64,000 nt of DNA, taken from a virus. The position numbers and the translations under genes were made by a program. Of this stretch, positions 882 to 54,193 are shown piece after piece; the stretch's first letter is position 1, and every line of letters starts with the position of its first letter. The stretch lies in IMG/VR virus record IMGVR_UViG_3300045988_156369. One strand, written 5' to 3'. The notes under the pieces were generated by a model. It was not told the DNA's origin. It saw only the letters and a list, made by a program, of their open reading frames with translations, and did not search any database.

Positions 882-885
882 ATAG

Positions 886-5694: not shown

Positions 5695-5756
5695 AAGCAA
5701 CGCTCCTTTGAATGGGAGGATGTACGCCAGGGTTTTGCGACCCTGGTTTTTATTTT

Positions 5757-6167
5757 TTAATAGGACAGAACGAAGAACAGCCAGGTAAGAAAAATTTGGC
5801 CGATATGGAGGAGCTGGTCGGTGGTAAGAGAAATAGAACCTTCGTTCGCTTTTTGGTGGTCGATAATAGCATGAAAACCGGTATTGGTAAGAATGGAGGA
5901 ACAGAAATAGGCAATTGCGTGTGGGTTATAAGGGAAGAACAGAGAATAAACCAGAAGCGGAATCGTAATGCAGGTTGACCACATGAAGGAATGCTCGATA
6001 AGGGCGGTGATGTAATCAACAGGATAATGCTCCTGAACGAATACCTTGGAATACTTGAGGTCCCACCACAAACGCTGCTTAAAATCGGCGAGGATGCCCT
6101 GGAGATTGTAATCGGCAATGAGGTGGGAGAAAACCATAAGGAGGAGGAGAAGAAATTTGATGGGCAT
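5757..6167 (-). CDS. membrane protein, DUF3307-like
   Basis: Several hydrophobic segments. HLIADYNLQ near the N-terminus resembles DUF3307. Confidence 0.55.
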   Translation of the reverse strand: MPIKFLLLLLMVFSHLIADYNLQGILADFKQRLWWDLKYSKVFVQEHYPVDYITALIEHSFMWSTCITIPLLVYSLFFPYNPHAIAYFCSSILTNTGFHAIIDHQKANEGSISLTTDQLLHIGQIFLTWLFFVLSY

Positions 6168-6182
6168 AAGGATTCACCTGCC

Positions 6183-6566
6183 TTACCAGCCGCGGCGCTT
6201 TTTGCCGATTTGTTCTGCCTTATAGGTCAGAGCGCGATCATGCACGCCGCTGATACGGTCGAGATAGTTGGGGTTGACTTCTACCTTTTCATCCTCAAAG
6301 ACATGCTGCCACCAGATACGATGACCGTCAGCGTAATCAACATTGTGTTCCTGCATAAGAGTGTAGAATGTCTCTTTGCGATTGTTAAAACGATGTCCAC
6401 GCCACTTTTCATAGATGGCTTTCTCTTCCGGGGTGGGTTCTGAGATGGAGCGCTGGTAGGCACCGAGGGCATTAAAATCTTTAATATCATTGGATGTATA
6501 GCCGGATGCAGCGGCAGAACCGAACAGACCAGCGATACCGAGAATTAAACCAAAACCACCTAACAT
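6183..6566 (-). CDS. hypothetical protein with N-terminal TM segment (127 aa)
   Basis: ORF with AAGGAGG RBS at 6572-6580. Confidence 0.7.
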
Positions 6567-23601: not shown

Positions 23602-24942
23602 TTATTCTCCTTCCTTAACGGAATCGTTTGCGGATTTGAGCTGTTCAATGGCCTGCTTGGGGGTGATGGATTCACCGGCGGCGGTAAGGATGACGGGGAT
23701 ATCATTGTGATAGGCGTCGGCGAAATCATCAAAGAAATATTTGGTGGAGATTGTTTCGACGAGGTTCATGCTGCTGGCGCTCTGCTGACAGATAGCAATG
23801 GCGGCAATAAAATCTCGGCGATCCTCGGCATCCTCCAGCATGGGTTCATAGTTACCGAGGCAGGAGTGATGATTGATGTGAGGGTTGGGAACAGCCTGAA
23901 TGACGTTCATATTGATCGCATCGGACATAGCTGTGACATGGCAGTTGTAATTAAGCCTATAGGTGGCAGCGAGTTTGATTTTGAAGATGTGGTCAATGAA
24001 CACAGCCCGGAAAAGGATACGGACATCGTGTTCTTCTTCATCGGTAAGATCCTGATAGGGGCGGTCACTGTTGAAGATAAAGGTTTCGACATCATCCGGG
24101 TCATAGTTGGAGAGGAATGTGGTGATGACGAGGAGAAGCGATCCATCGACAGCACCAACGGAGATACCCTTTTGAGTGTGGAGATAATCCTTGAGTTCCG
24201 TGATAAAGGTGGATTCATCTTTGGAGTCAAGGCCGGTCAGCTCACAGTTGGTGTTGGTGATGTTGGTAAAAATTTCCGAGATACGGGCGCGGGTTTCTTT
24301 CAGATCACGGTAAAGACTTTCAATTGACCGCTTGAGATCCGCTTTACGGCGGTCAATGGTACCTTTGAAGAGGGATTCGATCGCTTTATCTACGGCCCTG
24401 GAGGTCAGATCGGTTTTGTTATAAAGGGCTTCCGCCATCCGGGCGAGGGCTTCCGAGCCAGTATCCGGGGTGGAGAGGGCGCGAAGGTAAGCGAGTTCAT
24501 CGGAGGTGAGGGGGTGGTCCTTGAAAAGCCAGGGCAGCAGGCGGGGCATGGCCGAGGCGACACGGTTGTAAAAAACACTGCTGTAGAGGCCGCCGTCGCG
24601 CTGGAACTGGACGATGGTGATACGGGCGGCTGCATCCTGATAAACTTTGTATTTATCAGAGAGATAAGCGCCGATATCCTTAACTTCCTGGATGGAATCG
24701 GGGATGGAGGCTTTATCGGTGACGAAGAACAAACGGGATTCATTCGGGTTAGTGGAAGGCTGGAGGCCGGAATCATCGCCAAGGATGGCAAGGGTATTGC
24801 CTGCGGTGAGGCGGGAGTAGACCGTGCAGGCCAGAACTTTGGTGAAAATTGTTTTGAAAGAGGAGCGGCAGGGGGTGTTGTCCTGCCATGTGATGGTGGG
24901 CGACATGTAATTGAGAATATCGGTGTAATTGGGGAGTGGCAT
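23602..24942 (-). CDS. hypothetical protein of the E1/JAB cassette (446 aa)
   Basis: Long ORF abutting the JAB gene. Near the C-terminus, NPHINHHSCLG faintly resembles the HPN..C active-site stretch of E2/UBC folds. That resemblance is a weak inference only. Confidence 0.65.
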   Translation of the reverse strand: MPLPNYTDILNYMSPTITWQDNTPCRSSFKTIFTKVLACTVYSRLTAGNTLAILGDDSGLQPSTNPNESRLFFVTDKASIPDSIQEVKDIGAYLSDKYKVYQDAAARITIVQFQRDGGLYSSVFYNRVASAMPRLLPWLFKDHPLTSDELAYLRALSTPDTGSEALARMAEALYNKTDLTSRAVDKAIESLFKGTIDRRKADLKRSIESLYRDLKETRARISEIFTNITNTNCELTGLDSKDESTFITELKDYLHTQKGISVGAVDGSLLLVITTFLSNYDPDDVETFIFNSDRPYQDLTDEEEHDVRILFRAVFIDHIFKIKLAATYRLNYNCHVTAMSDAINMNVIQAVPNPHINHHSCLGNYEPMLEDAEDRRDFIAAIAICQQSASSMNLVETISTKYFFDDFADAYHNDIPVILTAAGESITPKQAIEQLKSANDSVKEGE

Positions 24943-25077
24943 GGTGATTCATTTTTCCTTTCTGATTAGATTTGGAACGATTGGCCGCGTTTGCGTTGCC
25001 CGCTGCCTGCCGCGGGGAGGCTGTTCCTGTCAGGCAGCACCCCGGTGGGGGAAGAGACACCACCGGAGGGAAATCAA

Positions 25078-35940: not shown

Positions 35941-36909
35941 ATGAAAAAAAGAAACAGCGTAGCTCACTTTATTCCCCGCACAGTTACGATGCAGGAAGCC
36001 GCAGATGCCAAAGGTGGGCTGGACCTACAAGGTGCTGCAAGCTTACTGATGGCAATGATGCAGGCAAGCGCCGATACTGACGGCCACAACGCCCTGATGG
36101 AACAGCTGGCATCCGCCATGGGTTATAAGCTGGTACGCGAAACACCACAGCCGCGCCAGCGGAGCCGCAGTAAGAAAGCCCGTGCCGCCCGCTATGCACA
36201 ACCCAAACTGAGTCTGGTAAAAACCAATGGTGTGGCAAAACCAACGCCGGCAGAGCCGATCCGCAGCCGCGAGGACTTTAACGCCATAGCCACATACCTG
36301 CACACCCAGGGACGCCCGTATAACAGGCAGCGGAACTATACCTTATTTATATGTGGTGTGACACTGGGCCTGCGTGTGGGCGATCTTTTACGCCTTACCG
36401 TTGATGATGTGTGGGATTGTGAGCACAACTGCCCGCGCCACCGCGTAATTATCATCAATGAAAAGACCGGCAAGCGCACCAATGACCTGATTACCCCGCT
36501 GGCAGCAGGCGCGATTACCGCTCTGATTGAAGAGATGCGGGGCCGAACCATGAATGTGCTGAAGCCAGGCTGGCCATTGTTCCAGAGTATGCGCAGCCCC
36601 AAGGGAGTGCCGCAGCCGCTGGACGAAACCCAGGTGTGGCGGATCTTAAACCATGCGGCCAAAGAGTGCGGCATTAAAGAGCATATTAGTACCCACAGCC
36701 TGCGCAAGACCTATGGCTATGCTGCAAACCACGCCATGACAGAGGCCGGGCTGCCGGCTGGCCAGGTGATGGAAACGCTGCAAAACAAGTTCCACCACAG
36801 CAGCCAGAGCATTACGATGCGCTACATTGGCTTGAGCCAGGAGCAGATTGATGCAACGGCAATGGCAGTAGATACAGTGTTGGGGGTGCCGCCGTTGGCT
36901 ACTATATAA
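35941..36909 (+). CDS. int: tyrosine recombinase / phage integrase
   Basis: Catalytic pattern GLRVGDLL (Arg), HSLRKTYG (HxxR), HSSQSITMRYIG (His..Tyr). Confidence 0.85.
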   Translation: MKKRNSVAHFIPRTVTMQEAADAKGGLDLQGAASLLMAMMQASADTDGHNALMEQLASAMGYKLVRETPQPRQRSRSKKARAARYAQPKLSLVKTNGVAKPTPAEPIRSREDFNAIATYLHTQGRPYNRQRNYTLFICGVTLGLRVGDLLRLTVDDVWDCEHNCPRHRVIIINEKTGKRTNDLITPLAAGAITALIEEMRGRTMNVLKPGWPLFQSMRSPKGVPQPLDETQVWRILNHAAKECGIKEHISTHSLRKTYGYAANHAMTEAGLPAGQVMETLQNKFHHSSQSITMRYIGLSQEQIDATAMAVDTVLGVPPLATI

Positions 36910-42973: not shown

Positions 42974-43010
42974 CCAACAATAAAAATATTTTTTTTGGAG
43001 GTATAAAACT

Positions 43011-43313
43011 TTGAACAAGAAAGAAGCTGAAACTTTGTTGATACTGACAAATTTTCTGCATGACCTGTGGCAGGGATTTAAGGCCATGGTGCTGGTTGGA
43101 AGCTGCATTGTGGTGATCCGGCTGGCGTTGCAGATGTTGGGTACTGTGGCCACGGTTGGAATTTTTGTGGCGCTGCCAGTTTTGTATGCGCTTCTGTGGG
43201 CGGCACTTTCCCGTGAGGCGTTTGACAGCGGGCGGGTTAGCATTGAAAAGATTTACAACTTGGAAAAAGCCGAGAACAAAGAGAATGACCCGGATAACAA
43301 GGAGGACGAGTAA
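43011..43313 (+). CDS. membrane protein (100 aa)
   Basis: TTG start after GGAGG. Two TM segments. Confidence 0.55.
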   Translation: MNKKEAETLLILTNFLHDLWQGFKAMVLVGSCIVVIRLALQMLGTVATVGIFVALPVLYALLWAALSREAFDSGRVSIEKIYNLEKAENKENDPDNKEDE

Positions 43314-44884
43314 TGTTCGCACCACCACTATATATTGTGCGAAAGTTGAACCTGACCTACATTATCAACCATGACTATAACATTCAGATCAGCCAGGAGG
43401 AGGAAGAGCGCTTTTATGTAAAGCAGGGTGATAACATGCTGTTCCGGCAGATCCGGCTGCTTACATATGAAAGCAACGAGTATAATCGGTTTGTTGTGTT
43501 TGTGGATTGCGTGGGTGGCCAGAACAAGAAGGCGGCGATGAAGCGGTTGATCCAGCACGGGTTTAAGATTGGAAAGCAAGAGTTTGTGCTGAGTGAACGC
43601 AGCGCCAGTATGGTGCGGCAGGGTATCTTGAGCTTTGTGGACAGGCGGTTGGCCCACGACCTTGACGTGAGAATCACGATGGGAATACAGCTAGACAAGA
43701 CTGTGCTCGCCAAAATGATGAGTTACCGTGGTTTGTGCTTTTCCAGCTGCCACTGCATTGAGAACTGGTACCCGACCATTGTGGTGGTGCCGGATTGTTT
43801 TGTGACGATACCAAACCAGAACATTAAATATGTATATGACCGCAAGATCCAGTTCAAAGACCGCAAAACCGGGGCTGACCGCGAGTGGGTACAGAAAGAC
43901 ATTGCAGAAACTACCCGCGACATTGAGATAAACGCCTTTGACGGCTGCGGGATTGCACACCCCAAGATTATGCAGGAGATACAGCGGCGGTTGGGCAGTG
44001 AGACGCCCGTGACCAGTGTGGTGTGGCGTATGCCGTACTTTAAGGGTGTGCTGAACCAGATGGATTATGAAACGTTTTTTGCAGAACGCGGGGTACGATT
44101 CATCAAAGACATTTGGGGCGTGGAACACGATGTCAGCCCAGGGGCTGAACCCAAGATTATTGCGTGTGAGAGCATGTACAAGGGGTACAAGTATTTTAAG
44201 AAGACCGGCACGATTGCGGACTGGGAGGAATACTGGTACCAGTTCAAGAAGAACAAGCACTGCATTGGCATTGCAAAGTGGCAGTTTGACATTGACACAG
44301 AACCGCTATACACCCGCGGCAACTACCAGATTTTGCAGGACCTGGATTTGCCGGTAGACGAGTTTGAGCATCTGGCAGATTACAGCATTGATTGGGTTGA
44401 AAAGATTGAGAACGGTGACCCGGTATACACCTACTGCTTTTTGGGCATGCTGGCTGACCGGCACAAACCGCTGAATAATTATTGCGCGGCGATTTTGAAG
44501 AACCCGGAGATGCTGAAAGAGGAGGGGGTGCGAAAATACATAACCAACTTGCTTGGAAAATATAAGGACGACATGAAGTGCGGCAAGTTGTGGCTGCGCG
44601 GAAGCTTTAAGTTCTTAGTGCCTGACCTGATTATGCTGATGGAACACATTGCCGGTCTACCCTTGAAGGGAGCGCTGGAGGCGGACGAGTTTTACAGTTT
44701 TGACAGAACAGGGACAACGCTTGGCGAACGGCTGATTGAACGCAACCCGCACATTTGCAAGAGCGAGCATGTGATCCTGAAAGGCGTGACCAACCCGCTG
44801 CTGGAAAAATATTGCAGCCAGTTGGTGAACACGTTGATTGTTAATTGCAAGAGTATTACCCCGCAGAGATTAAATGGCGCGGAT
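43313..44884 (+). CDS. RdRP/YonO-like two-barrel RNA polymerase, exon 1 of 4
   Basis: Ends ...ERNPHICKSEHVILKG...SITPQRLNGAD. The last exon nucleotide is U, paired in P1 (CGGAU/GUCCG). Confidence 0.75.
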
Positions 44885-45146
44885 CGGATGATGGTCCGGG
44901 GCTGTGGTAACACAGCATTTGGAACGGTGTGAACCCCTCGTCAGGGGTGTGGCCCGTATGGGCTGCTAACAGGGAATGCCTGCCTGAGAGACGGCAGGAG
45001 AATCCTGTGGCTGGAAACGGCTGCAACGACTATCTGGGATGAGTGTACCAGGGTAAGGCTGCTATTGACACGCAGTTTGGAGCGCACCGCTGCCGGGAGA
45101 CCGGTAGAAGATATAGTCTACACCTGCAAAAAATGACGTAGGTGTG
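44885..45146 (+). mobile_element. Group I intron 1 (262 nt, ORF-less)
   Basis: P1 with a U-G pair at the 5' splice site, GCTAACAGGGAA block, P7 pairing GACTAT/ATAGTC (R/S-like AAGATATAGTC), terminal G at 45146. Splicing restores GAD-YDGD. Confidence 0.75.
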
Positions 45147-45422
45147 TACGACGGGGATTTGGTCCTAGTATTAAATAGCCCTTTGATGATGAAGGGTGTG
45201 GACAGGAACGCAAAAATTGTAATTGACATTGAAGATAAAGTAACTGCGCTGGCGGAGAAGGACACGATCCAGAACCGCACGGCGTGCATTATGCGCAGCT
45301 TGAAGAGTTTGATTGGTGAGATTTCCAATTACGCGAGCTGCTACCACAACAAAACACCAAAAACTGAGAAGCAGAAAGAGACATACGCCCGGTATGTTGA
45401 TCTGCTCTCCATAACCAACGGT
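45147..45422 (+). CDS. RdRP/YonO-like RNA polymerase, exon 2
   Basis: YDGDLVLVLNSP...LIGEISNYAS...LLSITNG. Ends in U, paired in P1 (AACGGU/GCCGUU). Confidence 0.7.
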
Positions 45423-45672
45423 GGCTTCGCCGTTGTAAAACCGCGTGAATGCCTTATCAGCAGTGTCGCCTAAAGGGCGGCTAACGGTGAAACTCTTTAC
45501 AATACAGCGTAAAGACAATACCGTGCCAAGCTTTGATTGCCAGTTACTGGTAATTACTGAAGGTGTAAAGACTAGGGGTGATGAGTGTAGCCCTGTAGGC
45601 CGGGAGATGATAGCCCGGACGCCAAGCGCGTGGCCATGGAAACATGGAAGAGATAGTCTGGCCTGTATGGTG
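45423..45672 (+). mobile_element. Group I intron 2 (about 250 nt; 3' end 45660-45672 uncertain)
   Basis: GGCGGCTAACGGTGAA block and P7 pairing GACTA/TAGTC (AGAGATAGTC). Candidate terminal G at 45660, 45669 or 45672; all three keep the reading frame. Confidence 0.6.
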
Positions 45673-45704
45673 ACATACGGGATAATTGAAAAAACGAAAG
45701 CCAT
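45673..45704 (+). CDS. RdRP/YonO-like RNA polymerase, micro-exon 3 (32 nt)
   Basis: Encodes TYGIIEKTKA plus 2 nt of an Ile codon. The 5' boundary is uncertain. The 3' end is U, paired in P1 (GCCAU/GUGGC). Confidence 0.5.
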
Positions 45705-46669
45705 CAAGAATCGGTGGCCCTGTGCGGTGACGCGCAGTGGAAACAGCTGGTGAACCTGCAAGAGCAGGGTGTACACAGGACAAATGTGGAAACGCAGGAA
45801 ATGGCGTTTTGTCTGTGTGCTAACAGGGAAACTATCAGATTATAAAATATGGAGGTTGTATGTTTTTTATTGATAAAGATAAATACAGAGACAGCAGTGG
45901 CATTTATGCAATTACGAATATCGCCAACGGAAAAGTTTATGTAGGGCAGACAACAATGCGCTTTATAAAACGCTATTGGCATCATTGTTGGAAGTTGGCG
46001 CATAATGAACATGACAACTGTTACTTACAAAATGATTACAATACTTACGGGGAGGAGGCTTTTAATTTTAAGGTTTTAGCTGTGTTAGAAACTAATGATG
46101 ACATCAATATTATTGAGCAGCAGTGGATTGCTTTTTATAGATCTTTAGGTTGTTGTTACAACATTCAAGATGGCGGCCAAGAGAAAAATCTGGGACGTTT
46201 TCTATCTAAAGAGTCTAAGAGAAAAATTGGAGAAAAGAATCGTGAGCATATGTCTGGAAGAAAACTGCCTGAACAGACAAGATTGCACATGCGAGAATCA
46301 GCACATAGAGGTTCTGATAACATGACGGCAAAACTAAACGAGCTTGATGTAGTTGAGATCGCAAATTTGATAAACTCTGGTTTTTCTAACAGAGAGATTG
46401 CAGCTAGATACAATGTTACTCATGAGAATATTCAGCACATTAGAAAAGGCCATACCTGGAGCCACATTACAGGTTTTGGTAGACATTAAAAACTTATAGC
46501 AAATATAATCTGATACAATCCTGTGCCAAGCCTTATACATATAATAAGGAAGGTCAAGAGACTAGCCCGCAAGGGATGTACGCGATCCGGTGAAAATCCG
46601 GCGTGGAAGTGCCAGCCTCTCATACACGCCAAGAGTGTGAGATGATGATATAGTCCACAAGCAAGAATG
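45705..46669 (+). mobile_element. Group I intron 3 (965 nt) carrying a GIY-YIG homing endonuclease
   Basis: Paralog of intron 1: same P1 geometry, covarying hairpin CTGTGC..GCGCAG, GCTAACAGGGAA and AATCCTGTG blocks. The HEG lies in a loop closed by ATCAGATTATA/TATAATCTGAT. P7 pairing GACTA/TAGTC. Terminal G at 46669. Confidence 0.72.
45860..46489 (+). CDS. GIY-YIG homing endonuclease
   Basis: GIYAITNIANGKVYVGQT...RYWHH...N...EEAF (GIY-YIG module), plus repeated basic NUMOD-like segments and a C-terminal HTH-like region. GGAGG RBS. Confidence 0.85.
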   Translation: MFFIDKDKYRDSSGIYAITNIANGKVYVGQTTMRFIKRYWHHCWKLAHNEHDNCYLQNDYNTYGEEAFNFKVLAVLETNDDINIIEQQWIAFYRSLGCCYNIQDGGQEKNLGRFLSKESKRKIGEKNREHMSGRKLPEQTRLHMRESAHRGSDNMTAKLNELDVVEIANLINSGFSNREIAARYNVTHENIQHIRKGHTWSHITGFGRH

Positions 46670-47366
46670 CGATTTTGCAAAAACCGGTGTGCTGTACCCG
46701 GTGCCGCGGCAGATTGCCAAGTATGGCAGACCTTTGCCGTATTTTATGAAATATGCAAGCCCGTACTACAAGCGGATGAAGCGCCTGAGCTGCGCCCACA
46801 GCAACATGAATAAGATGTGTTGGGTTATTGAAAAGTGGGCGGACGGGCTGCGCCACAAAAGGAGTGACGGGTTTGATTACACAATTATGATTGACGCGGA
46901 GGTGGGATTTAGCCAGGAGCATTTTGATGCGATTGAAAAAATCTACTTTGAGTTTAATAAAACGGTAGCCGAGCTGGCAGAGACTGAACACCATTGCCGT
47001 TACTTTGATCGGTTCAAAGATGAGCTGGAGGCCGAGGGCGTTACAAAGGAGTTTGCCGCCAACTTTGAGGTTGACTGGCAGCTGTACTACAACAAGTTCC
47101 GTGCCCGGTGTGCAGAGATTTGCCTTGACCCCAAAGAACTGGCCAACATTGCCGTGATGCTTTGCTACCAGAAATACCCCCGCCGCAGCAAGAAGTTTAT
47201 GTGGGTGGTGGCCGGCACCGGCATTGTGGAGAACATCCAGCAGGTGAACATTTGCTTGCCGCAGCTGTGCGATGACGGTGAATATGAGTACCTGGGTAAG
47301 CGTTATGCCCTGGTGCCGGTTGGCAACGAACTGAACATTGAACCGATTGAAGGAGGAGAGGGGTAA
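46670..47366 (+). CDS. RdRP/YonO-like RNA polymerase, exon 4
   Basis: Splicing gives KAI-DFAKTGVLYPVPRQIAKYGRPLPYFMKY, matching the AVDFxKTG....P.FM block of RdRP-family enzymes. Summed exons are 2577 nt, giving 858 codons plus a stop. Confidence 0.72.
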
Positions 47367-48181
47367 TGTATTACAGCTATTATTGCAATGAAAAGATGCT
47401 GCTGGATAACTTTGACGATTACAATGAAAGCCCGCGGCTGTTACGGCGGCTGTTGGCGCAGAGTGGGTATGAGCCAGATTTTTGTGCAGATATGCAGCTG
47501 GCCCATACAGACCCCAAGTACATAAGGCAGTATGACCGGTTGGACCTAATCCAGCAGTACAAGAAAAAACAGCTGAAGAAGTGTGGACTGCGGCAGGTTG
47601 ACAAGATCTACCTTTATGATAGCGACCTGACTTACATCCGGTTGGCGATCCGTACTTATGGGCTGACGCAGCGACAGGTAAAGGTTTTGCTTGGTGTGAT
47701 TATTATGTGCCGGCTGAATGGTAGCGACACGCTGGATCTGATGAACCGATACAGGATTAAACAGTTTTGCTCTTGCTTTGGGCGAGATGTGACAGCGATA
47801 CACATTGATGGCGCGAACTGGTGGGACGGTTATGAAGCGCCGGTGGAGCTGGATGTGCTGAGTGACAAGTGCGGTATATTGAACCGAATTACTTGTAAGC
47901 CGGGTCCGGGGCGGATTGGCTGTTTGTATGAGTATCCGTTTTATGATCACAAAAGCGAAGGTGTTTACTGCTGGGATGTGACGGCAGAGAACAACCGGTT
48001 GGACATGGATAAATTGTGCGCAGAGATTGGGCTGTTTGACAACCGGTACTGCGAAAAGTGTGGGGAAGAGATTGCGTGGAATGCCAAGGCACACTACTGC
48101 AAGACCTGCGCGGAATTGGAGAAAAATGCCAAGACATTAGCCCGCGTGACCCGCTACAGAAACAAAAATAATACCTTGTAA
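47366..48181 (+). CDS. hypothetical protein with C-terminal zinc ribbon (271 aa)
   Basis: CEKCGEE...CKTC. ATG overlaps the upstream stop codon. Confidence 0.7.
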   Translation: MYYSYYCNEKMLLDNFDDYNESPRLLRRLLAQSGYEPDFCADMQLAHTDPKYIRQYDRLDLIQQYKKKQLKKCGLRQVDKIYLYDSDLTYIRLAIRTYGLTQRQVKVLLGVIIMCRLNGSDTLDLMNRYRIKQFCSCFGRDVTAIHIDGANWWDGYEAPVELDVLSDKCGILNRITCKPGPGRIGCLYEYPFYDHKSEGVYCWDVTAENNRLDMDKLCAEIGLFDNRYCEKCGEEIAWNAKAHYCKTCAELEKNAKTLARVTRYRNKNNTL

Positions 48182-48295: not shown

Positions 48296-48511
48296 ATGAT
48301 TGTTATTTCTAAGGAAGAAGCAAAAATGTTGCGCAAGAAGTTCCCCGGTGTGCATATGGTTACGACCGTGAACAAAACGATGGTGGACGAGCTGCCGTAT
48401 GTGCTGCAGGCTTTGCCCAACAACTATTTTGCGCAGGAAGCTTTGGCTGAGATGGAGCGTGACCAGCGCCGCACCGGAATTGTGAATACACGGGGTGACG
48501 TGAATGCTTGA
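48296..48511 (+). CDS. hypothetical protein (71 aa)
   Basis: ATG at 48296 after AAGGAG. Confidence 0.6.
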   Translation: MIVISKEEAKMLRKKFPGVHMVTTVNKTMVDELPYVLQALPNNYFAQEALAEMERDQRRTGIVNTRGDVNA

Positions 48512-49685
48512 ACTGCACAAGCTTGCCAAGGAAACTGACAATGAATACATCTACCGCATTTGTGCTGCCAAGGACCAGATTGGTACCTGGGACGATGTGG
48601 CGGATGTGATCAATAAAGAGCTGGGGCAGGACAAGGATGAGTGCGTATACCGCAAGAACTGGAAGGCGTTCAACATTCTGGCGCACGCCAGTGAAACTAA
48701 CCTGAGTGACGCCCAGCAGATTTTGGGCGAGATTAAAGAGCAGCGCCGCGAGCTGGAGAAAGAAAAGGTTAAGCTGCGGGACGAGCGCAATGAAGTGAGC
48801 CGCCTGATGCGGGTACAAGCCCGTGGAGAGAGCATGCGAGAGCTGATTGAACGGCGGTTCAGCGCTTATAAGCCGGAGACTTTTGAACACATTGGGGTAG
48901 TTAGTACAGAAGCACTGACGACTGACCTGATTGTTCACCTGACCGACCTGCATGCGGGAGTAAAGATTGAGAACCTTTACAATAGTTTTGACCAACAGGT
49001 GCTGCGTGCCCGGCTGAAGCGTTATGCAGAAAAGGTGTATGTGATCCAGCAGCGCCACAATGGCCAGAATTGTTTTTTGGTGCTGGGCGGAGACCTGGTA
49101 AACGGTGAGATCCACCTGAACAACCGGCTGGAAAACAACGAGAATGTAGTGGACCAGGTAATCAGCGCCGGGGAAGCTGTGAGTTGGTTTGTGGCTGAAC
49201 TGAGCCGTATGTTTGAACATGTATACATTTATAGTGTGCCGGGTAACCATAGCCGGGTGTTCCCTGCCAAGGAGGATAACCAGCACGGTGAATACCTGGA
49301 CAAGCTTGTGACTTATATTGTGGACGCACGCTGTGCGGCACTTGGCAATGTAGAAACCTACCAGAATACGATTGACGAGACGATTGCGGACTTTATGGTA
49401 CGCGGCCGACTGGTGTATGCAGTGCATGGTGACAAAGACACACCGGGCAGCGTGGTACAGACCTTGACTATGATGACAGGTGATAAGCCTGACATTGTGC
49501 TGATGGGACACCGCCACACCAATGCCCTGACGACTGTATACGATACGAAAGTATACGAAAGCGGCTGTGTGGATGGCGCGGACAGTTACTGCATGGATAA
49601 GAGATTGCGAAATAAACCGGAGCAGAACGTGCTGGTGGTGAATGCTTACGGCGTGGATTGCTGTTACGATATTACGCTGGATTAG
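48504..49685 (+). CDS. calcineurin-like metallophosphoesterase (Mre11/SbcD-type fold)
   Basis: Motifs TDLHAG, GGDLVNG, PGNHS, VHGD and MGHRHT in canonical order. Confidence 0.8.
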   Translation: MLELHKLAKETDNEYIYRICAAKDQIGTWDDVADVINKELGQDKDECVYRKNWKAFNILAHASETNLSDAQQILGEIKEQRRELEKEKVKLRDERNEVSRLMRVQARGESMRELIERRFSAYKPETFEHIGVVSTEALTTDLIVHLTDLHAGVKIENLYNSFDQQVLRARLKRYAEKVYVIQQRHNGQNCFLVLGGDLVNGEIHLNNRLENNENVVDQVISAGEAVSWFVAELSRMFEHVYIYSVPGNHSRVFPAKEDNQHGEYLDKLVTYIVDARCAALGNVETYQNTIDETIADFMVRGRLVYAVHGDKDTPGSVVQTLTMMTGDKPDIVLMGHRHTNALTTVYDTKVYESGCVDGADSYCMDKRLRNKPEQNVLVVNAYGVDCCYDITLD

Positions 49686-49711
49686 AGCGTGGGATTTTTT
49701 GATGAGAGGGG

Positions 49712-49969
49712 ATGGTTGTTAGAGTGGGTGAGTATGAGAAGAAGCAGCCCGAATACTTTTGCAGTTATTCGGCGCGGCTTACGAATTTTTTGAAGGCGTT
49801 TGGTTTGAGCTATGAGAGCCGGCAGATAAATCCCATTACCCAGACAAGCTACTGTGTGTTTAAGCGCAGCCAGAAATTGATGGATGTGATAGAGTTTTGG
49901 AACGAGTGCCGGAACAACTTCCGTGATTATGATGAGAACGGGAACCGCGCCGATAAGGCGGGTGACTGA
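49712..49969 (+). CDS. hypothetical protein (85 aa)
   Basis: ORF with GAGAGGGG RBS. Confidence 0.6.
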   Translation: MVVRVGEYEKKQPEYFCSYSARLTNFLKAFGLSYESRQINPITQTSYCVFKRSQKLMDVIEFWNECRNNFRDYDENGNRADKAGD

Positions 49970-49971
49970 AC

Positions 49972-51027
49972 ATGGCCGGAAGACCGAAAGGCTCTAAAAA
50001 TAAAGCTACAATTTTACGAGAAAACGCAGAAGCGCAGGCCAAGATCCGCCGCATGATGGCAGAGGACGATGGGCCTGCGTATTTTGTTTGCGCCTGTTGC
50101 GGCAAGCGGTTTATGCACCAGAAGGATAATTTTTCCCCTGCGCAGAGTGAGCTGTGGCGAGGAAACAACCATTACTTTCCGGTATGCAAAAGCTGCATGG
50201 ACAAGCTGGTTGACCATTATACCCAGGCGCTGGGTAATGAGGATGAGGCCATGAAGCGGGTGTGCATGCTGTTTGACATTTATTACAGCGAGGGCCTGCT
50301 GAAAAGCACGGCAAAGCACGCCCCGAACACAAGCCGGATGACAGCTTGGATCAGACATTGCAACATGACCCAGAACCATGGCAAGACCTTTGATACCTAC
50401 CTGGAAGAAATTAACGGGCGGGTGATCAATGATGTAAGCGATATCAGCGAGACACGACCAAACGGCGGCAAGGTAAGCCAGCGTATGGTTGGGTTTTGGG
50501 GGCCAGGGTTCAACGAGGCCGAGTATGTGCGGCTTGACAATGAGTACAAGGACTGGATTACCCGGTATGAGTGCTCCACAAAGGCGCAGGAAGAATTGTT
50601 CAAAGCAATCAGTATGGCGCAGATTATGCTGACAAAGGCATACCAGACGGGTGACACCAAGAAGGTAAAAGAGGCCAGCGATACTTTGCAGAACCTGCTG
50701 GGTAGCGCCAATATTAAGCCGAACCAGACGAACGATAATGCGCTGGCAGAGGCAAATACCTTTGGCACTTTGATTAAAAAGTGGGAAGACAAAAAGCCGA
50801 TCCCGGAAGCTGCGCCTGAATGGAAAGACGTGGATGGGATTGGTAAATATTTCCGCACTTGGGTGACAGGGCCAATGATGGAACTGTTCAAGATCAAGAA
50901 CCCGTGGCAGAAAGAATACGAGGAAGGCATGGCACCTTATACAGCGCACCGACCTGAATACACCGGCGGAGAAGAGGAAGAGAACGAGAGTATCCGCAAC
51001 GCCATTTTTGGCACCCCAGGAGAGTGA
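49972..51027 (+). CDS. putative small terminase / DNA-binding protein
   Basis: 351-aa ORF immediately upstream of terL. Basic N-terminus GRPKGSKNK and a Cys4 cluster. The function is positional. Confidence 0.5.
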   Translation: MAGRPKGSKNKATILRENAEAQAKIRRMMAEDDGPAYFVCACCGKRFMHQKDNFSPAQSELWRGNNHYFPVCKSCMDKLVDHYTQALGNEDEAMKRVCMLFDIYYSEGLLKSTAKHAPNTSRMTAWIRHCNMTQNHGKTFDTYLEEINGRVINDVSDISETRPNGGKVSQRMVGFWGPGFNEAEYVRLDNEYKDWITRYECSTKAQEELFKAISMAQIMLTKAYQTGDTKKVKEASDTLQNLLGSANIKPNQTNDNALAEANTFGTLIKKWEDKKPIPEAAPEWKDVDGIGKYFRTWVTGPMMELFKIKNPWQKEYEEGMAPYTAHRPEYTGGEEEENESIRNAIFGTPGE

Positions 51028-51039
51028 GGTGGTGCTTGA

Positions 51040-52782
51040 ATGGTGAAGAAAACTGCAAGAGAGGTTACGGAAGATAAGACAAGCCGGATTATGAATGCCG
51101 TGGCGCTGTGGGCCAGCTTTTACCGGGCGAACCCGCAGAGGTTTTGCAAGGATTATTTGAACGTAAACCTGAAGATGTTCCAACAGATTTTGATTTATTG
51201 CATGGCGCTATGCACAAATTTTTGTTTTATAGCGGCGCGTGGTCTAGGCAAAACGTTCCTATGTGCAATTTTCTGTTGTTGGAAAGCGATCTTGTACCCA
51301 GGCAGCCTGATTGTGATTGCGAGCAAAACGCGAAACCAGGGCAGCCTGGTACTGAAAAAGATTGAGCAGGAGTTGGTGCCGCGAAGCCCATTACTGCGCA
51401 GTGAGATAAAAGATATAACGATAAACCAGAGTGTGGCGAAGATAACCTTCCGTAATGACAGTGTGATTGAGGTTGTGACCGCCGCAGACACTGCCCGTGG
51501 CGGCCGTGCGAGTTTGCTGATCATTGACGAGTACCGCATGGTTGACAAGGAAGTGCTGGATCTGGTTTTGAAGAAGTTTTTGAACTATATCCGCCACCCC
51601 GGCTACATGGACAACCCCAAGTACGCCCATTTGGCGGAACGCAACCAGCAGATGTACCTAAGCTCTGCATGGTTTGAACAGCACTGGTCATGGGATTTAT
51701 GCAAGGATTACTTTGTGAACATGTTTGACACCACGAAAAATTACTATTGTTTCCGATTCCCGTACCAGATGAGTATTAAGGAAAACCTGCTGCTGAAGAG
51801 CCAGGTAGAAGACGAGATGACAGAATCGACGTTTTCTGACATACGGTTCCGCATGGAGAACGAGGCGCTGTTTATTGGTACGACAGATGGCGGGCTATTT
51901 AGCTTTGATGACATTAACAAGCAGCGCAAGATCATAAAAGCGTTCTATGCGCCAAACATGATTTTGAACAATAAGGCGGCTTGCCAGTTGCCGGCCAAGA
52001 AGACCGGTGAGAAGCGGATTTTGACGGTTGATATTGCCCTGATGAGTTCTAAGCGCCGCGACAATGACGCCACCAGCATCTTTTTGAACAGTTTGGTGCC
52101 GGACAGTACAGGCAAGTGTACCAGCAACATGGTGTACACCGAAAACTGCGAGGGTATTATTACGCAGGATTTGGTGCTGAAGCTACGCCGCTACTTTAAG
52201 TATTTTGAGTGTGACTACATTGGCATTGACGCAAAGGGTCTTGGTGCTCCTATTATGGATCTGCTGATGCACGAGTGCTATGACCCGGAGACGGGCGAGA
52301 CATACCCGCCGCTGAACTGCTGCAATAACCCGGATTTCCAGGAGCGGTGCCCCGACAAGACGGCACCCAAGGTGATTTGGGCGATCATGGGCAGTAGCCA
52401 GTTTAATAATGACGTGACAATTGCGTTGCGAAGCGGAATCCAACAGGGGAGAATCCGGTTTTTGGAATCCGAATATGACTGCGAAGAGATTTTGCGGGCG
52501 AACATTAAAGGTTATGACAAGCTTTCACCCATGGAGAAGATGGCGCTGCAGATGCCGTACATCAATACCGGATTGGCTGTAAATGAGCTGGTGAACCTGG
52601 AATATGAAGCAACGAATAATTTGATCCGTGTGCATGAGAAGCCCGGCGCACGCAAGGACCGTTACAGCAGCCTGAGCTATAACTATTACATTGCGCTGCA
52701 GGTTGAACGCATGATGAGTAAAAACTTTATGCGCAATAAGAAGATTGAAATAAACTTTAGAGCGCCCAGACTGCGGCATTAA
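51040..52782 (+). CDS. terL: terminase large subunit
   Basis: Walker A-like AARGLGKT, Walker B LLIIDEY. 580 aa with a C-terminal nuclease-sized domain. Position is before portal. Confidence 0.85.
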   Translation: MVKKTAREVTEDKTSRIMNAVALWASFYRANPQRFCKDYLNVNLKMFQQILIYCMALCTNFCFIAARGLGKTFLCAIFCCWKAILYPGSLIVIASKTRNQGSLVLKKIEQELVPRSPLLRSEIKDITINQSVAKITFRNDSVIEVVTAADTARGGRASLLIIDEYRMVDKEVLDLVLKKFLNYIRHPGYMDNPKYAHLAERNQQMYLSSAWFEQHWSWDLCKDYFVNMFDTTKNYYCFRFPYQMSIKENLLLKSQVEDEMTESTFSDIRFRMENEALFIGTTDGGLFSFDDINKQRKIIKAFYAPNMILNNKAACQLPAKKTGEKRILTVDIALMSSKRRDNDATSIFLNSLVPDSTGKCTSNMVYTENCEGIITQDLVLKLRRYFKYFECDYIGIDAKGLGAPIMDLLMHECYDPETGETYPPLNCCNNPDFQERCPDKTAPKVIWAIMGSSQFNNDVTIALRSGIQQGRIRFLESEYDCEEILRANIKGYDKLSPMEKMALQMPYINTGLAVNELVNLEYEATNNLIRVHEKPGARKDRYSSLSYNYYIALQVERMMSKNFMRNKKIEINFRAPRLRH

Positions 52783-52838: not shown

Positions 52839-54014
52839 ATGCTCATGGAGGATAAGAGGAAATTGCTAAAAAGCTTCAAGACAGAAATAAATCCGACGGT
52901 CGAGCAAAAAATTAAGATTCGTAAAACGATAGGAACTTGCAGATTTATTTATAACTTCTATTTAGCTCATAACAAAAAGCTTCACGAAGATGGGGAAAAA
53001 TTTATGAGCAGCAGTAAATTTAGAATCTGGCTCAATAACGAATATCTTCCACAGCATCCGGAGCATTTGTGGATCAAGGAGGCATATTCAAAGGCTGTAA
53101 CACAGTCAGTAAATAACGGACAGACCGCATTTACAAGATTTTTTAATCACGAAAGTGCTTTCCCTAATTTCAAAAAGAAAGGCAAATCTGATGTAAAAAT
53201 GTATTTCGTAAAGAATAATCCTAAAGATTGTTATTGCGAAAGACATCGGATTAAAATTCCATCGCTTGGCTGGGTTCGTATCAAGGAAAAAGGATATATA
53301 CCAACTACCAAAGATGGGTATGAGATTAAAAGCGGTTCGGTTTCAATAAAGGCTGACAGGTATTATGTTTCAGTTCTTGTGGAAGTCTCTGATAACAAAA
53401 CAACCAATCACTTCAATGAAGGGATTGGCATAGACCTTGGACTAAAAGATTTTGCCATTGTATCAAACGGCAAAACATATCAAAACATCAACAAAACAGA
53501 AAAACTTAAAAAACTTGAGAGACAGCTTATTCGAGAACAAAGGTGTCTTTCTCGTAAATACGAAAAATTAAAGAAAGGAGAGTCCACTCAAAAGAATATA
53601 CAAAAACAAAAACTCAAAGTACAAAAACTTCACCATAGGATAGATAATATCCGTACCGATTATATCAACAAGACAATCGCAGAGATGGTAAAAACCAAGC
53701 CATCTTACATAACGATTGAAGACTTAAATGTAAAAGGTATGATGAAGAACAGGCATCTCGCAAAAGCCGTTGCATCACAAAAGTTCTATGAATTTAGAAC
53801 CAAGCTCAAAGCTAAGTGCAATGAAAATGGTATTGAATTAAGAGTTGTAGACAGATGGTATCCATCATCCAAAATGTGTCACTGTTGCGGCACTATCAAG
53901 AAAGATTTGAAGCTTTCGGATAGAATATACCGTTGCGATTGTGGCTATGTCGAGGATAGGGACTTTAATGCTGCTCTTAATCTAAGAGATGCTTTAACTT
54001 ACGAAGTTGCATAA
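52839..54014 (+). CDS. tnpB: TnpB (IS605 OrfB-family RNA-guided nuclease)
   Basis: RuvC triad contexts GIDLGLKD, ITIEDLN and DRDFNAALN. Zinc finger CHCCG...CDCG. N-terminal OrfB-like helix-rich region. Confidence 0.88.
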   Translation: MLMEDKRKLLKSFKTEINPTVEQKIKIRKTIGTCRFIYNFYLAHNKKLHEDGEKFMSSSKFRIWLNNEYLPQHPEHLWIKEAYSKAVTQSVNNGQTAFTRFFNHESAFPNFKKKGKSDVKMYFVKNNPKDCYCERHRIKIPSLGWVRIKEKGYIPTTKDGYEIKSGSVSIKADRYYVSVLVEVSDNKTTNHFNEGIGIDLGLKDFAIVSNGKTYQNINKTEKLKKLERQLIREQRCLSRKYEKLKKGESTQKNIQKQKLKVQKLHHRIDNIRTDYINKTIAEMVKTKPSYITIEDLNVKGMMKNRHLAKAVASQKFYEFRTKLKAKCNENGIELRVVDRWYPSSKMCHCCGTIKKDLKLSDRIYRCDCGYVEDRDFNAALNLRDALTYEVA

Positions 54015-54193
54015 TAAAAGCAAACGTAAGTATGTACTGCGGGCTATCGCAGGAATTCACGACTGTGGAGTGTACAAGAACTTGTGAGTAGCGTATCTGT
54101 TTACGGATTGCAAAAGCATACACAGTGAAGCAGTAAGAAGTATCCGCAAGGACTTCAATTTCTCGATGTGTTTGAGTATATTTCAACACATTT
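54015..54193 (+). ncRNA. Candidate TnpB omega/reRNA scaffold region
   Basis: ORF-free 180 nt between the tnpB stop codon and the right end of the insertion, where TnpB guide-RNA scaffolds are encoded. The assignment is positional. Confidence 0.4.

What the first reader, a model, noticed from the sequence alone, without database searches (positions are those of the whole stretch)
43313..47366. RdRP/YonO-like single-subunit RNA polymerase gene split by three group I introns inserted in its catalytic motifs
**Splicing model.** Joining 43313-44884, 45147-45422, about 45673-45704 and 46670-47366 gives one 858-codon ORF (2577 nt, in frame).

**Motifs restored by splicing.** All are hallmarks of the eukaryotic-type RdRP/QDE-1 family, to which SPbeta YonO belongs:
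- ...LNGAD|YDGDLVLVL, the DxDGD metal-binding loop
- LIGEISN
- ...KTKAI|DFAKTGVLYPVP...PLPYFMKY, matching AVDFxKTG...P.FM

**Splice-site evidence.**
- Each 5' splice site follows a U that can form a U-G pair in a P1 helix with an internal guide 9 or 6 nt downstream: CGGAU/GUCCG, AACGGU/GCCGUU, GCCAU/GUGGC.
- Each intron has a GACUA/UAGUC P7 pairing within R/S-like blocks.
- Introns 1 and 3 end in G.

Introns sitting exactly in the two most conserved peptide motifs is typical of homing.
Basis: partly seen in the sequence, partly recalled or inferred. Interest (0 to 1): 0.72.

Follow-up and report, generated by a model that had tools for sequence, protein, structure and literature searches.

The report
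Phage RNA polymerase gene with three introns
A gut-phage gene for a YonO-type RNA polymerase is interrupted by three mobile self-splicing group I introns, two of them only 8 bases apart; this is real and neatly documented by intron-free sister alleles, but it is a new example of a known phenomenon.

Summary
The finding is essentially right, with one boundary wrong. Window 43313-47366 (+) encodes one YonO-like RNA polymerase, split by three group I introns.

- **Corrected anatomy.** Intron 1 is 44885-45146, intron 2 is 45423-45696 and intron 3 is 45705-46669. Exon 3 is 8 nt (AAAGCCAT, 45697-45704), not about 32 nt. The product is 850 aa, not 858.
- **Empty sites.** IMG/VR alleles 97-98% identical in DNA carry no intron (L014, L015) or only one of them, and fix every junction.
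- **The protein.** The spliced product passes Pfam RdRP PF05183 in one stretch across all junctions. It aligns to SPbeta YonO with hhalign probability 99.8%.
- **Where the introns sit.** Intron 1 lies inside the catalytic D|YDGD triad. Introns 2 and 3 lie in NG|KA(I)|DFAKTG.
- **RNA evidence.** All three follow a U that pairs with G in P1 and end in G. Hand-built IA-like structures are 98-99% paired, with 11-13 compensatory pairs each. None reaches the Rfam gathering score, and intron 1 gets no Rfam hit at all.
- **Mobility.** Intron 3 carries a GIY-YIG homing endonuclease. Relatives hold up to four introns in this gene.

Multi-intron phage genes and an intron in a phage RNA polymerase gene are known. 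The 8-nt exon appears to be new for a phage. Splicing itself is inferred.

The parts
43313..44884 (+). Exon 1 of the YonO-like RNA polymerase gene (aa 1-524, ends ...LNGAD, the first Asp of the catalytic triad)
   Evidence: ORF list and translation. It is contiguous with exon 2 in intron-free alleles L014, L015, L022 and L048.
44885..45146 (+). Intron 1, 262 nt, group I (IA-like), no ORF. P1 is 44880-44884 with 44894-44898; P7 is 45028-45032 with 45114-45118; the terminal G is 45146.
   Evidence: Precisely absent in L014/L015/L022/L048. The hand-built structure on 12 site-1 introns is 98.6% paired, with 11 pairs changed on both sides against 1-3 in slid controls. No Rfam hit even when searched alone. 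Its DNA profile hits intron 2 at E=1.7e-9.
45147..45422 (+). Exon 2 (aa 525-616, YDGDL...LIGEISN...LLSITNG)
45423..45696 (+). Intron 2, 274 nt, group I (IA-like), no ORF. P1 is 45417-45422 with 45429-45434; P10 is 45423-45427 with 45698-45702; P7 is 45570-45574 with 45654-45658; the terminal G is 45696.
   Evidence: RF00028 39.3 bits, E=5.6e-8, below the gathering score of 50. Absent in L014/L015/L048/L041 and present alone in L024/L025. The structure is 98.8% paired, with 11 compensatory pairs against 0-4 in slid controls.
45697..45704 (+). Exon 3, an 8-nt micro-exon AAAGCCAT (Lys-Ala and the first two bases of Ile)
   Evidence: Homologues have only KAI between NG and DFAKTG. The empty-site DNA reads AACGGT|AAAGCCAT|CGATTT. 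It is contiguous with exon 2 in L048 and with exon 4 in L022/L024.
45705..46669 (+). Intron 3, 965 nt, group I (IA-like). The guide AAUCG-GUGGC lies at 45709-45718: P10 pairs with 46670-46674 and P1 with 45700-45704. P4 is 45823-45828 with 46519-46524; P7 is 46560-46564 with 46651-46655; the terminal G is 46669.
   Evidence: RF00028 scores 20.5 bits on the 3' half and 30.6 bits (E=1.8e-5) on the ORF-less 296-nt version in L026. Absent in L014/L015/L024 and present alone in L048 and L079-81. The structure is 98.2% paired, with 13 compensatory pairs against 1-4 in slid controls.
45860..46489 (+). GIY-YIG homing endonuclease ORF (209 aa) in the terminal loop of P5 of intron 3, with a GGAGG ribosome-binding site upstream
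   Evidence: Pfam GIY-YIG 30.9 bits (cut-off 22.6), and phrog_314 homing endonuclease at E=1.8e-25. It is 35% identical (E=1e-43) to the ORF inside the yonO intron of Bacillus phage Goe14. ORF-less relatives have ACTATCATGGTTGATAC at this position.
46670..47366 (+). Exon 4 (last base of the Ile codon, then DFAKTGVLYPVP...GGEG and the stop)
48504..52782 (+). Downstream SPbeta-like late genes: YonJ-like metallophosphoesterase (48504-49685), YonG-like protein (49972-51027) and terminase large subunit (51040-52782)
   Evidence: Pfam Metallophos_2 and phrog_284. YonJ_N and YonG_N are recorded on the syntenic genes of related loci. Terminase_6N hit.

Best explanation
Window 43313-47366 is one gene of a temperate Bacillota (probably Lachnospiraceae) phage.

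**The protein.** It encodes an 850-aa YonO-type single-chain, two-barrel RNA polymerase. By analogy with SPbeta YonO, this is the phage's own DNA-dependent RNA polymerase for late genes.

**The interruptions.** The pre-mRNA carries three independent, IA-like self-splicing group I introns of 262, 274 and 965 nt. Each folds so that its internal guide pairs with the last 5-6 exon bases (P1, with a U-G pair at the splice site). Exogenous G attacks there. The freed exon then attacks after the terminal G, helped in introns 2 and 3 by a P10 pairing with the next exon.

**The micro-exon.** Introns 2 and 3 are separated by an 8-nt exon, AAAGCCAU.
- Bases 2-6 are the P10 partner of intron 2.
- Bases 4-8 are the P1 partner of intron 3.
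- The two reactions therefore cannot use the exon at the same moment and presumably happen one after the other, in either order.

**Spread.** Intron 3 carries a GIY-YIG homing endonuclease in its P5 loop. This enzyme, and the HNH or GIY-YIG genes found in P5 or P6 of sister copies of introns 1 and 2, cut intron-less alleles during co-infection or phage-prophage encounters. The introns are then copied in by repair. This explains the patchwork of 0 to 4 introns among alleles about 97-98% identical to the window (nucleotide identity computed for L014 only).

**Shown:** the exact insertion boundaries, the family of the protein, RNA structure conservation, the endonuclease family, and the population polymorphism.

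**Inferred:** that splicing happens, the order of splicing, endonuclease activity and target, and the polymerase's template and role.
For: **Boundaries**
- Alleles L014/L015 match the spliced CDS over all 2553 nt without any insertion, at 97-98% identity.
- L041, L022/L023 and L048 carry only intron 1, 2 or 3 respectively.
- The window's spliced CDS differs from L014 at 46 nt but only 6 aa, which indicates purifying selection on the joined frame.

**Protein**
- PF05183 at 51 bits against a cut-off of 23.8, in one stretch across the junctions.
- hhalign to SPbeta YonO with probability 99.8% and E=2e-28, aligning the Asp triad.
- The triad is essential for YonO catalysis (PMC5467207).
- yonJ, yonG and terminase synteny.

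**RNA**
- U before each 5' splice site, paired to G; a terminal G on all three introns.
- Structures are 98.6%, 98.8% and 98.2% paired, with 11, 11 and 13 pairs changed on both sides, against 0-4 when the partners are slid.
- RF00028 gives E=5.6e-8 for intron 2 and E=1.8e-5 for ORF-less intron 3.
- P10 is AAGCC/GGCUU for intron 2 and CGAUU/AAUCG for intron 3.

**Mobility**
- GIY-YIG ORF.
- ORF-containing and ORF-less versions of every intron.
- Twenty-six fetched loci in two phage lineages (~98% and ~72% protein identity) carry introns 2 and 3 around the same 8-nt exon, and L001 breaks off inside intron 2, so the arrangement is carried by phages that persist.
- Nucleotide differences from the empty allele L014 cluster just 3' of site 1 (nt 1578-1602) and at sites 2/3 (nt 1854-1866). 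This is as expected for co-conversion tracts or endonuclease-resistant targets.
Against: - No RNA data: splicing was not observed.
- None of the three introns reaches Rfam's gathering score of 50 bits. Intron 1 has no RF00028 hit at all.
- The structures were drawn by hand from these same sequences, which favours them over the slid controls. The alignments hold only 2-4 independent lineages each.
- All three introns have one or two hairpins between P3 and P4, where canonical group I introns have a 3-nt joiner. I could not find this described.
- Intron 1 has no convincing P10.
- The overlap of P10 and P1 on the 8-nt exon might lower splicing efficiency or allow exon skipping.
Confidence: 0.9

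Rival explanations
1. One reading: intron 2 ends near 45672 (or at G45681) and exon 3 is 32 (or 23) nt. This would add TYGIIEKT (or IIEKT) to give an 858- or 855-aa protein.
For: The frame stays open with these joins. The RF00028 alignment of intron 2 stops at 45680, after the P9 hairpin.
Against: - None of the 19 full-length homologues aligned (nine of them read residue by residue) has extra residues between NG and KAI.
- Empty-site and single-intron alleles put the 3' boundary at ACG|AAAGC[CT]AT.
- Only that boundary gives a terminal G followed by a 5-bp P10 (AAGCC/GGCUU).
Confidence: 0.02
2. The gene is a decaying pseudogene. One or more insertions, especially intron 1, which Rfam does not recognise, no longer splice, and the phage does without this polymerase.
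For: Rfam scores are sub-threshold or absent. There is no expression data.
Against: - Exons differ from the intron-free allele almost only at synonymous sites: 46 nt against 6 aa.
- Helices of all three introns keep pairing through compensatory changes.
- The same three-intron layout recurs in 18 fetched alleles about 98% identical to the window at protein level, plus the window and 3 more alleles that add a fourth intron.
- YonO-type polymerase is a conserved hallmark gene of SPbeta-like phages (preprint 10.1101/2021.11.22.469490).
Confidence: 0.05
3. A genes-in-pieces arrangement: the fragments (539-aa, 109-aa and 225-aa ORFs) are translated separately and assemble without RNA splicing. The insertions would be free-standing endonuclease cassettes or other non-splicing mobile DNA.
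For: Exon 4 has a possible GTG start at 46689, and exon 1 ends at a stop 16 codons into intron 1.
Against: - The break falls between the first and second Asp of the metal-binding triad.
- The 8 nt encoding K-A-(I) cannot be translated on their own.
- Two of the three insertions have no ORF at all.
- The insertions have a conserved group I fold.
Confidence: 0.02

Closest known systems
yonO of Bacillus phages vB_BsuS-Goe14 and Goe11 (SPbeta-like), deposited as yonO_2 + 'hypothetical protein' + yonO_1
   Same: - The same host gene family, interrupted in the same TIDFAKT/AIDFAKTG motif by a ~1.3-kb insertion.
- The insertion has a weak RF00028 hit (18.9 bits).
- Its GIY-YIG ORF is 35% identical (E=1e-43) to the window's.
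- It shows the same 'P3 ...GUG-AA-hairpin' layout.
   Different: - One intron, not three.
- It is inserted 4 nt downstream (ATCGAT|TTC, against GCCAT|CGAT).
- The host polymerase is only ~23% identical.
- The records do not annotate an intron, and the accompanying preprint never mentions one.
- Only Goe14 was examined here.
Multi-intron phage genes: Staphylococcus phage Twort orf142 (three group I introns, exon skipping) and DNA polymerase / terminase genes of Bastillevirinae (two or three introns)
   Same: Several self-splicing group I introns in one essential phage gene, many with homing endonuclease ORFs (PMC11878797; Landthaler & Shub 1999, as cited there).
   Different: - A different host gene.
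- An exon of 8 nt, or overlapping use of an exon by P10 of one intron and P1 of the next, is not mentioned in what I could read.
- The Twort paper itself was not available.
Intron with HNH endonuclease in the virion RNA polymerase gene of Pseudomonas phage PhiPA3
   Same: A mobile group I intron in a phage-encoded RNA polymerase gene. Its endonuclease attacks the intron-less allele of a related phage (PMC11620839; summarised in PMC11878797).
   Different: - That is a multisubunit-type polymerase of a nucleus-forming jumbo phage, with one intron and an HNH nickase.
- A competition role is not tested here.
Micro-exon between two group IB introns in placozoan mitochondrial cox1 (1 nt)
   Same: Two independent group I introns separated by a tiny exon that must be kept for the reading frame (PMC5436844).
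   Different: That case is organellar and fixed in the lineage. Here both introns are still polymorphic and mobile in a virus, and each also occurs alone.
T4 td, nrdB and nrdD introns (subgroup IA2, with I-TevI-type GIY-YIG endonucleases) - from general knowledge, not tested here
   Same: Phage group IA introns with P7.1/P7.2, an endonuclease ORF in a peripheral loop, and insertion in catalytic regions of nucleotide-metabolism enzymes.
   Different: The introns here have structured hairpins between P3 and P4 and are not, or only weakly, recognised by RF00028.

Membership tests
Group I intron | 5' splice site follows a U that forms a U-G pair in P1 with an internal guide sequence | tested here: met
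   The pairs are CGGAU/GUCCG, AACGGU/GCCGUU and GCCAU/GUGGC. P1 is 100% paired in 12 site-1 and 7 site-3 introns.
Group I intron | Intron ends in G (omega G) immediately before the 3' exon | tested here: met
   G45146, G45696 and G46669, at boundaries fixed by empty-site alleles. At the DNA level the intron 3 boundary is ambiguous by 1 nt. The U/G rule selects CAT|C...G|CGA.
Group I intron | Conserved core: P3-P8 with the P3/P7 pseudoknot, P4-P6 domain, and J8/7 followed by the P7 3' strand | tested here: met
   Hand-built structures are 98.2-98.8% paired, with 11-13 pairs compensated against 0-4 in slid controls. GA[UG]A[UG]AGUC is present once in each intron and nowhere else in the window.
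Group I intron | Score at or above the Rfam RF00028 gathering threshold (50 bits) | tested here: not met
   Intron 2 scores 39.3 bits. Intron 3 scores 20.5 bits, or 30.6 for the ORF-less relative. Intron 1 has no hit. This is a detection threshold of one general model, not a structural criterion. A fourth intron in relatives scores 86 bits.
Group I intron | Guanosine-dependent self-splicing | not testable with these tools
   Needs in vitro transcription and splicing, or RNA-seq.
Group I intron, subgroup IA | Extra helices P7.1 and P7.2 between the P7 5' strand and the P3 3' strand | tested here: met
   Two hairpins sit at that position in all three introns. Compensatory changes are seen in both hairpins of intron 1, in P7.1 of intron 2 and in P7.2 of intron 3. 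The finer subgroup (IA1/2/3) is not assigned. The hairpins between P3 and P4 are not a feature I know from IA.
YonO / RdRP (PF05183) two-barrel RNA polymerases | Match to the family profile above the curated cut-off | tested here: met
   PF05183 at 51 bits against 23.8, aa 73-661. phrog_8308 at E=3.5e-75.
YonO / RdRP (PF05183) two-barrel RNA polymerases | Catalytic Asp triad DxDGD | tested here: met
   D524-Y-D526-G-D528 is restored by removing intron 1. It is invariant in 20 homologues and aligned to the YonO DNDGD, which is essential for YonO activity (PMC5467207).
YonO / RdRP (PF05183) two-barrel RNA polymerases | Detectable homology to SPbeta YonO itself, and SPbeta-like gene neighbourhood | tested here: met
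   tblastn E=1e-13 at 23% identity. hhalign probability 99.8%. YonJ_N- and YonG_N-bearing neighbours and a terminase lie downstream.
YonO / RdRP (PF05183) two-barrel RNA polymerases | DNA-templated RNA synthesis | not testable with these tools
   Inferred from YonO only. Sequence searches of the PDB found no solved relative.
GIY-YIG homing endonuclease | GIY-YIG catalytic domain plus C-terminal DNA-binding module, encoded inside an intron loop | tested here: met
   PF01541 at 30.9 bits against 22.6. Weak NUMOD3 and HTH_38 hits. phrog_314. The ORF replaces the P5 loop of the ORF-less version.
GIY-YIG homing endonuclease | Cleavage of the intron-less allele near the insertion site | not testable with these tools
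   Only indirect: presence/absence polymorphism, and clustered exon differences next to the sites.

The most novel reading that the evidence does not exclude
**The micro-exon.** The 8-nt exon between two still-mobile group I introns may be the first such case in a virus. Because its bases double as P10 partner of the upstream ribozyme and P1 partner of the downstream one, correct expression of the phage's own RNA polymerase may depend on ordered or cooperative splicing of tandem ribozymes.

**The intron class.** The yonO-associated introns, including the site-1 class that RF00028 cannot see, may form an undescribed IA-like subclass. Their mark would be a covarying structured domain inserted between P3 and P4.
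Probability: 0.4. Interest if true: 0.55.

Novelty: new member of a known kind. Interest (0 to 1): 0.45.

Why it matters
- **Annotation.** YonO-type polymerase genes of gut and Bacillus phages are repeatedly mis-called as two to five fragments: truncated 547-, 549- and 625-aa 'proteins' in the protein database (cluster representatives standing for 343, 940 and 15 member sequences), and yonO_1/yonO_2 in GenBank. A class of group I introns escapes the standard Rfam model.
- **Biology.** This is a natural series of 0-to-4-intron alleles of one essential phage gene. That is convenient material for studying homing, co-conversion, endonuclease gain and loss, and possible intron-mediated competition between co-infecting phages.
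- **RNA mechanism.** The 8-nt exon shared by two ribozymes gives a simple test system for how tandem group I introns avoid exon skipping.

Tried and rejected
- **Rfam at gathering threshold over the whole window:** no group I hit. With relaxed thresholds, intron 1 alone still gave nothing.
- **Megablast of 43000-47600 against GenBank phages:** no match.
- **PDB sequence searches** with the protein and with a 20-sequence profile: no relative.
- **My own intermediate hypothesis:** intron 2 ends at G45681, giving a 23-nt exon and 855 aa, which I used. I dropped it once uninterrupted homologues and empty sites were seen.
- **MAFFT misalignment:** it misaligned the ends of the L004/L051-type intron 2, so P1 and P10 of intron 2 were left out of the formal count and checked by eye only.
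- **Literature:** I found no paper on introns in yonO and none on helices between P3 and P4. The Twort three-intron paper was not held.
- **Other options considered:** inteins and group II introns were rejected without a dedicated test. Stops occur in the exon frame 16-17 codons into each intron.

Full report
**What is in the sequence**

On the + strand, 43313-47366 holds four pieces of one reading frame separated by three insertions.
- Exon 1 ends ...LNGAD at 44884.
- Exon 2 runs 45147-45422 (YDGDL...LIGEISN...LLSITNG).
- Exon 4 starts at 46670 (the last base of an Ile codon, then DFAKTGVLYPVP...).

- Nine uninterrupted homologues of 837-861 aa (53-72% identical) read ...NG-KAI-DFAKTG, with only three residues between exons 2 and 4.
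- The intron-free DNA of L010 reads AACGGT AAAGCCAT CGATTTTGCC.
- Exon 3 is therefore the 8 nt AAAGCCAT (45697-45704).
- Intron 2 is 45423-45696 and, like the other two, ends in G.
- The spliced CDS is 2553 nt, which gives 850 aa.

**Empty sites**

A scan of IMG/VR with a 20-sequence protein alignment returned 80 loci. BLASTN of the spliced CDS against them gave a natural deletion series.
- L014 and L015 match all 2553 nt at 97-98% identity with no insertion.
- L041 has only intron 1. L022/L023 have only intron 2. L048 has only intron 3. L024/L025 have introns 1 and 2.
- Besides the window, 18 loci (L040 and L042 among them) carry introns 1, 2 and 3 and no other.
- The junctions in the empty alleles are GCGCGGAT|TACGA and AACGGT|AAAGC[CT]AT|[CT]GA.
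- The boundaries of introns 1 and 2 are unambiguous at the DNA level.
- The boundary of intron 3 is ambiguous by one base. It is resolved by the rule that a group I 5' exon ends in U and the intron ends in G.
- The window's spliced CDS differs from L014 at 46 nucleotides but only 6 amino acids, so the joined frame is under purifying selection.

**The protein**

- The spliced product hits Pfam RdRP (PF05183) at 51 bits (cut-off 23.8), in a single stretch covering aa 73-661 that crosses the junctions.
- It hits phrog_8308 at E=3.5e-75 over aa 70-817.
- tblastn finds SPbeta yonO (E=1e-13, 23% identity) and 'RNA-dependent RNA polymerase' genes of Thomasclavelia and Enterocloster phages.
- hhalign of the family alignment against SPbeta YonO gives probability 99.8% and E=2e-28 over 677 columns. 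It aligns LNGADYDGDL with LQFDNDGDK, LIGEISN with NIGEYSN, and NGKAIDFAKTG with NNFTIDFAKTL.
- The Asp triad is essential for YonO's DNA-dependent RNA synthesis (PMC5467207).
- Downstream genes are a YonJ-like phosphoesterase, a YonG-like protein and a terminase, as in SPbeta. An integrase lies at 35941-36909.
- This is a temperate SPbeta-like phage of gut Bacillota. A ~99% identical copy sits on a 141-kb contig binned as a Lachnospiraceae MAG.
- The introns sit in invariant columns of the alignment: G522, D524 | D526, G527, D528, and G616 | K617, I619 | D620, K623, T624, G625.

**Are the insertions group I introns?**

Rfam's RF00028 does not reach its gathering score of 50 bits for any of them.

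| Intron | RF00028 result |
|---|---|
| 1 | no hit, even when searched alone |
| 2 | 39.3 bits, E=5.6e-8 |
| 3 | 20.5 bits on its 3' half |
| 3, ORF-less 296-nt version in L026 | 30.6 bits, E=1.8e-5 |

I therefore drew structures by hand and tested them on alignments of the variants found at each site.

| Intron | Alignment | Cells paired | Pairs changed on both sides | Same, slid controls |
|---|---|---|---|---|
| 1 | 12 sequences, 4 sequence types | 98.6% | 11 | 1-3 |
| 2 | 7 sequences | 98.8% | 11 | 0-4 |
| 3 | 7 sequences | 98.2% | 13 | 1-4 |

- Each intron has P1 with a U-G pair at the splice site.
- Each has P3, P4-P6 and P8, the P7 pseudoknot GACUA/UAGUC preceded by a J8/7 of the usual GA(U/G)A(U/G)AGUC form, and two hairpins (P7.1/P7.2) between P7 and P3'. 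That last feature is the mark of subgroup IA. A P9 hairpin was drawn and counted for introns 1 and 2 only.
- The J8/7-P7 decamer occurs three times on both strands of the whole window, each time at the end of one of these introns.
- Intron 2 has a 5-bp P10: GGCUU at 45423-45427 with AAGCC at 45698-45702.
- Intron 3 also has a 5-bp P10: AAUCG at 45709-45713 with CGAUU at 46670-46674.
- Intron 1 has no convincing P10.
- DNA profiles of introns 1 and 2 hit each other (E about 1e-9), so these two are paralogues.

Caveats: the structures were derived from these sequences, and each alignment contains few independent lineages.

**An unusual shared feature**

All three introns place one or two hairpins between the 5' strand of P3 and P4, in the pattern P3(...GUG)-AA-hairpin(s)-(G)CUA-P4. 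By eye, the Goe14 yonO intron does the same. Canonical introns have a three-base joiner at this position.
- The hairpins covary. In intron 3, 7 of 9 pairs of the larger one are fully replaced between lineages.
- P3 itself has one compensated pair in intron 2.
- I found no description of this, and it may explain the poor Rfam scores.

**Mobility**

- Intron 3 carries a 209-aa GIY-YIG ORF (45860-46489) with its own GGAGG. It sits where ORF-less copies have the P5 loop.
- Sister copies of intron 1 carry an ORF in the P6 loop (788- and 797-nt forms); I did not run it against any protein family library.
- Sister copies of intron 2 carry either a GIY-YIG-like ORF (by its motif; L022, L037) or an HNH_3 ORF (weak precomputed Pfam hit; L004-L007) in the P5 loop.
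- Relatives have a fourth site near codons 126-137, occupied by a canonical group I intron (86 bits). L087, L089 and L093 have four introns.
- Differences between the window and the empty allele L014 cluster at nt 1578-1602, just 3' of site 1, and at nt 1854-1866. L015 has identical flanks.
- That pattern fits co-conversion or endonuclease-resistant target variants.
- All six alleles lacking intron 3 whose micro-exon was printed read AAAGCTAT; one other, L015, reads AAAGCCAT. Those with it all read AAAGCCAT.
- Distant homologues also carry insertions at hot spots near residue 525 and near residue 620 (mapped by tblastn only). These are in Clostridiales Family XIII PM5-7 and Faecalibacillus, at 53-55% identity.

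**The micro-exon**

Introns 2 and 3 flank the same 8 nt in 24 further fetched loci of the ~98% lineage and in L051/L052 of a ~72% lineage. Each intron also occurs alone, so this is two elements rather than one composite.
- Bases 2-6 of the exon are intron 2's P10 partner.
- Bases 4-8 are intron 3's P1 partner.
- The two pairings compete for GCC.
- I infer sequential splicing in either order. Intron 3's own P10 would guard against skipping, which would shift the frame by 8 nt. None of this is shown.

**Comparison with what is known**

- Two or three group I introns in one phage gene are known, in Bastillevirinae DNA polymerase and terminase and in Twort orf142.
- An endonuclease-bearing intron in a phage RNA polymerase gene is known from PhiPA3.
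- A 1-nt exon between two group IB introns is known in placozoan cox1.
- GenBank already holds an unannotated yonO intron. In Goe14 the gene is annotated as yonO_2, a hypothetical protein and yonO_1.
  - The insertion lies at ATCGAT|TTCGCA, 4 nt downstream of the window's site 3.
  - Its GIY-YIG ORF is 35% identical to the window's.
  - The accompanying preprint does not mention introns.
- I found no paper on introns in yonO.

**Verdict**

It is a new member of a known kind.

Three details would interest specialists:
- the tandem introns around an 8-nt exon;
- the 0-to-4-intron allele series;
- an intron class with a structured P3-P4 insert that Rfam misses.

Splicing, endonuclease activity and polymerase function remain inferred.

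Noticed in passing
window 52839-54136: A TnpB/IS605 OrfB gene (Cas12f1-like TNB, OrfB_IS605, HTH_OrfB_IS605) sits right after the terminase. It is followed 48 nt later by a full RAGATH-18 RNA (54062-54136, 72.5 bits). This looks like a TnpB with its guide-RNA region inserted in the late operon. Related loci also carry TnpB (L004) or RAGATH-18 (L112 1105-1177).
   Followed up: partly
window 24973-25038 (-), with ORFs 23602-24942 (-) and 20573-21763 (-): A sub-threshold match to the HDV-like ribozyme of F. prausnitzii (38.7 bits; gathering score 44; E=0.0013) lies just upstream of a 446-aa ORF with no Pfam hit. A reverse transcriptase (RVT_1) gene lies further down the same strand.
   Followed up: no
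window 81-1162 (-): A cluster of four tRNA genes (81-170, 280-370, 810-881, 1091-1162). Two of them have long variable arms.
   Followed up: no
L086-L093, CDS nt ~378-411 (window equivalent about 43690-43725, unoccupied): There is a fourth intron site in the same gene in close relatives. It holds a canonical group I intron (RF00028 86 bits) of 341 nt, or 1310 nt with a 310-aa ORF. L087, L089 and L093 carry four introns in this 2.5-kb gene.
   Followed up: partly
window 44932-44968, 45450-45483 and 45761-45826 (between P3 and P4 of introns 1, 2, 3); L011 4624-4690: All three introns and the Goe14 yonO intron have covarying hairpins inserted between the P3 5' strand and P4, after a conserved ...GUG-AA motif. 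I found this described nowhere. In introns 1 and 3 the UGA of this motif is the stop that closes the upstream exon frame.
   Followed up: partly
window 44885-45146; L111 4557-4861; L112 4578-4863: The insertions next to the DxDGD motif (site 1), whether in close relatives or in homologues at 53-55% identity, get no RF00028 hit. That holds at E<=10 in the window and in L026 and at E<=0.1 in L089, L086, L111, L112 and L094, although the close relatives show good covariation support. The L111/L112 insertions were mapped by tblastn only and their sequence was not compared with intron 1. This class seems invisible to the standard model.
   Followed up: partly
L014 versus window, CDS nt 1578-1602 and 1854-1866: Of the 46 differences between the window's spliced CDS and the intron-free allele L014, 19 lie in these two stretches: 14 immediately 3' of site 1 and 5 at sites 2/3. 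The other empty allele, L015, has near-identical flanks (one base differs in the 20 nt 3' of sites 2/3). This may reflect endonuclease-resistant versus susceptible targets.
   Followed up: partly
L011 (OL580764.1 Goe14) 2701-6498; also MT601272.1 Goe11: GenBank records of SPbeta-like Bacillus phages annotate yonO as two genes with a 'hypothetical protein' between them. The gap is an unannotated group I intron with a GIY-YIG ORF.
   Followed up: yes
L027, L030, L035, L050, L086, L087, L094 (site 1 region): A further insertion of about 960-980 nt lies at or next to site 1. The first ~25 nt of exon 2 are diverged there, so simple peptide anchors fail. It was not characterised.
   Followed up: no
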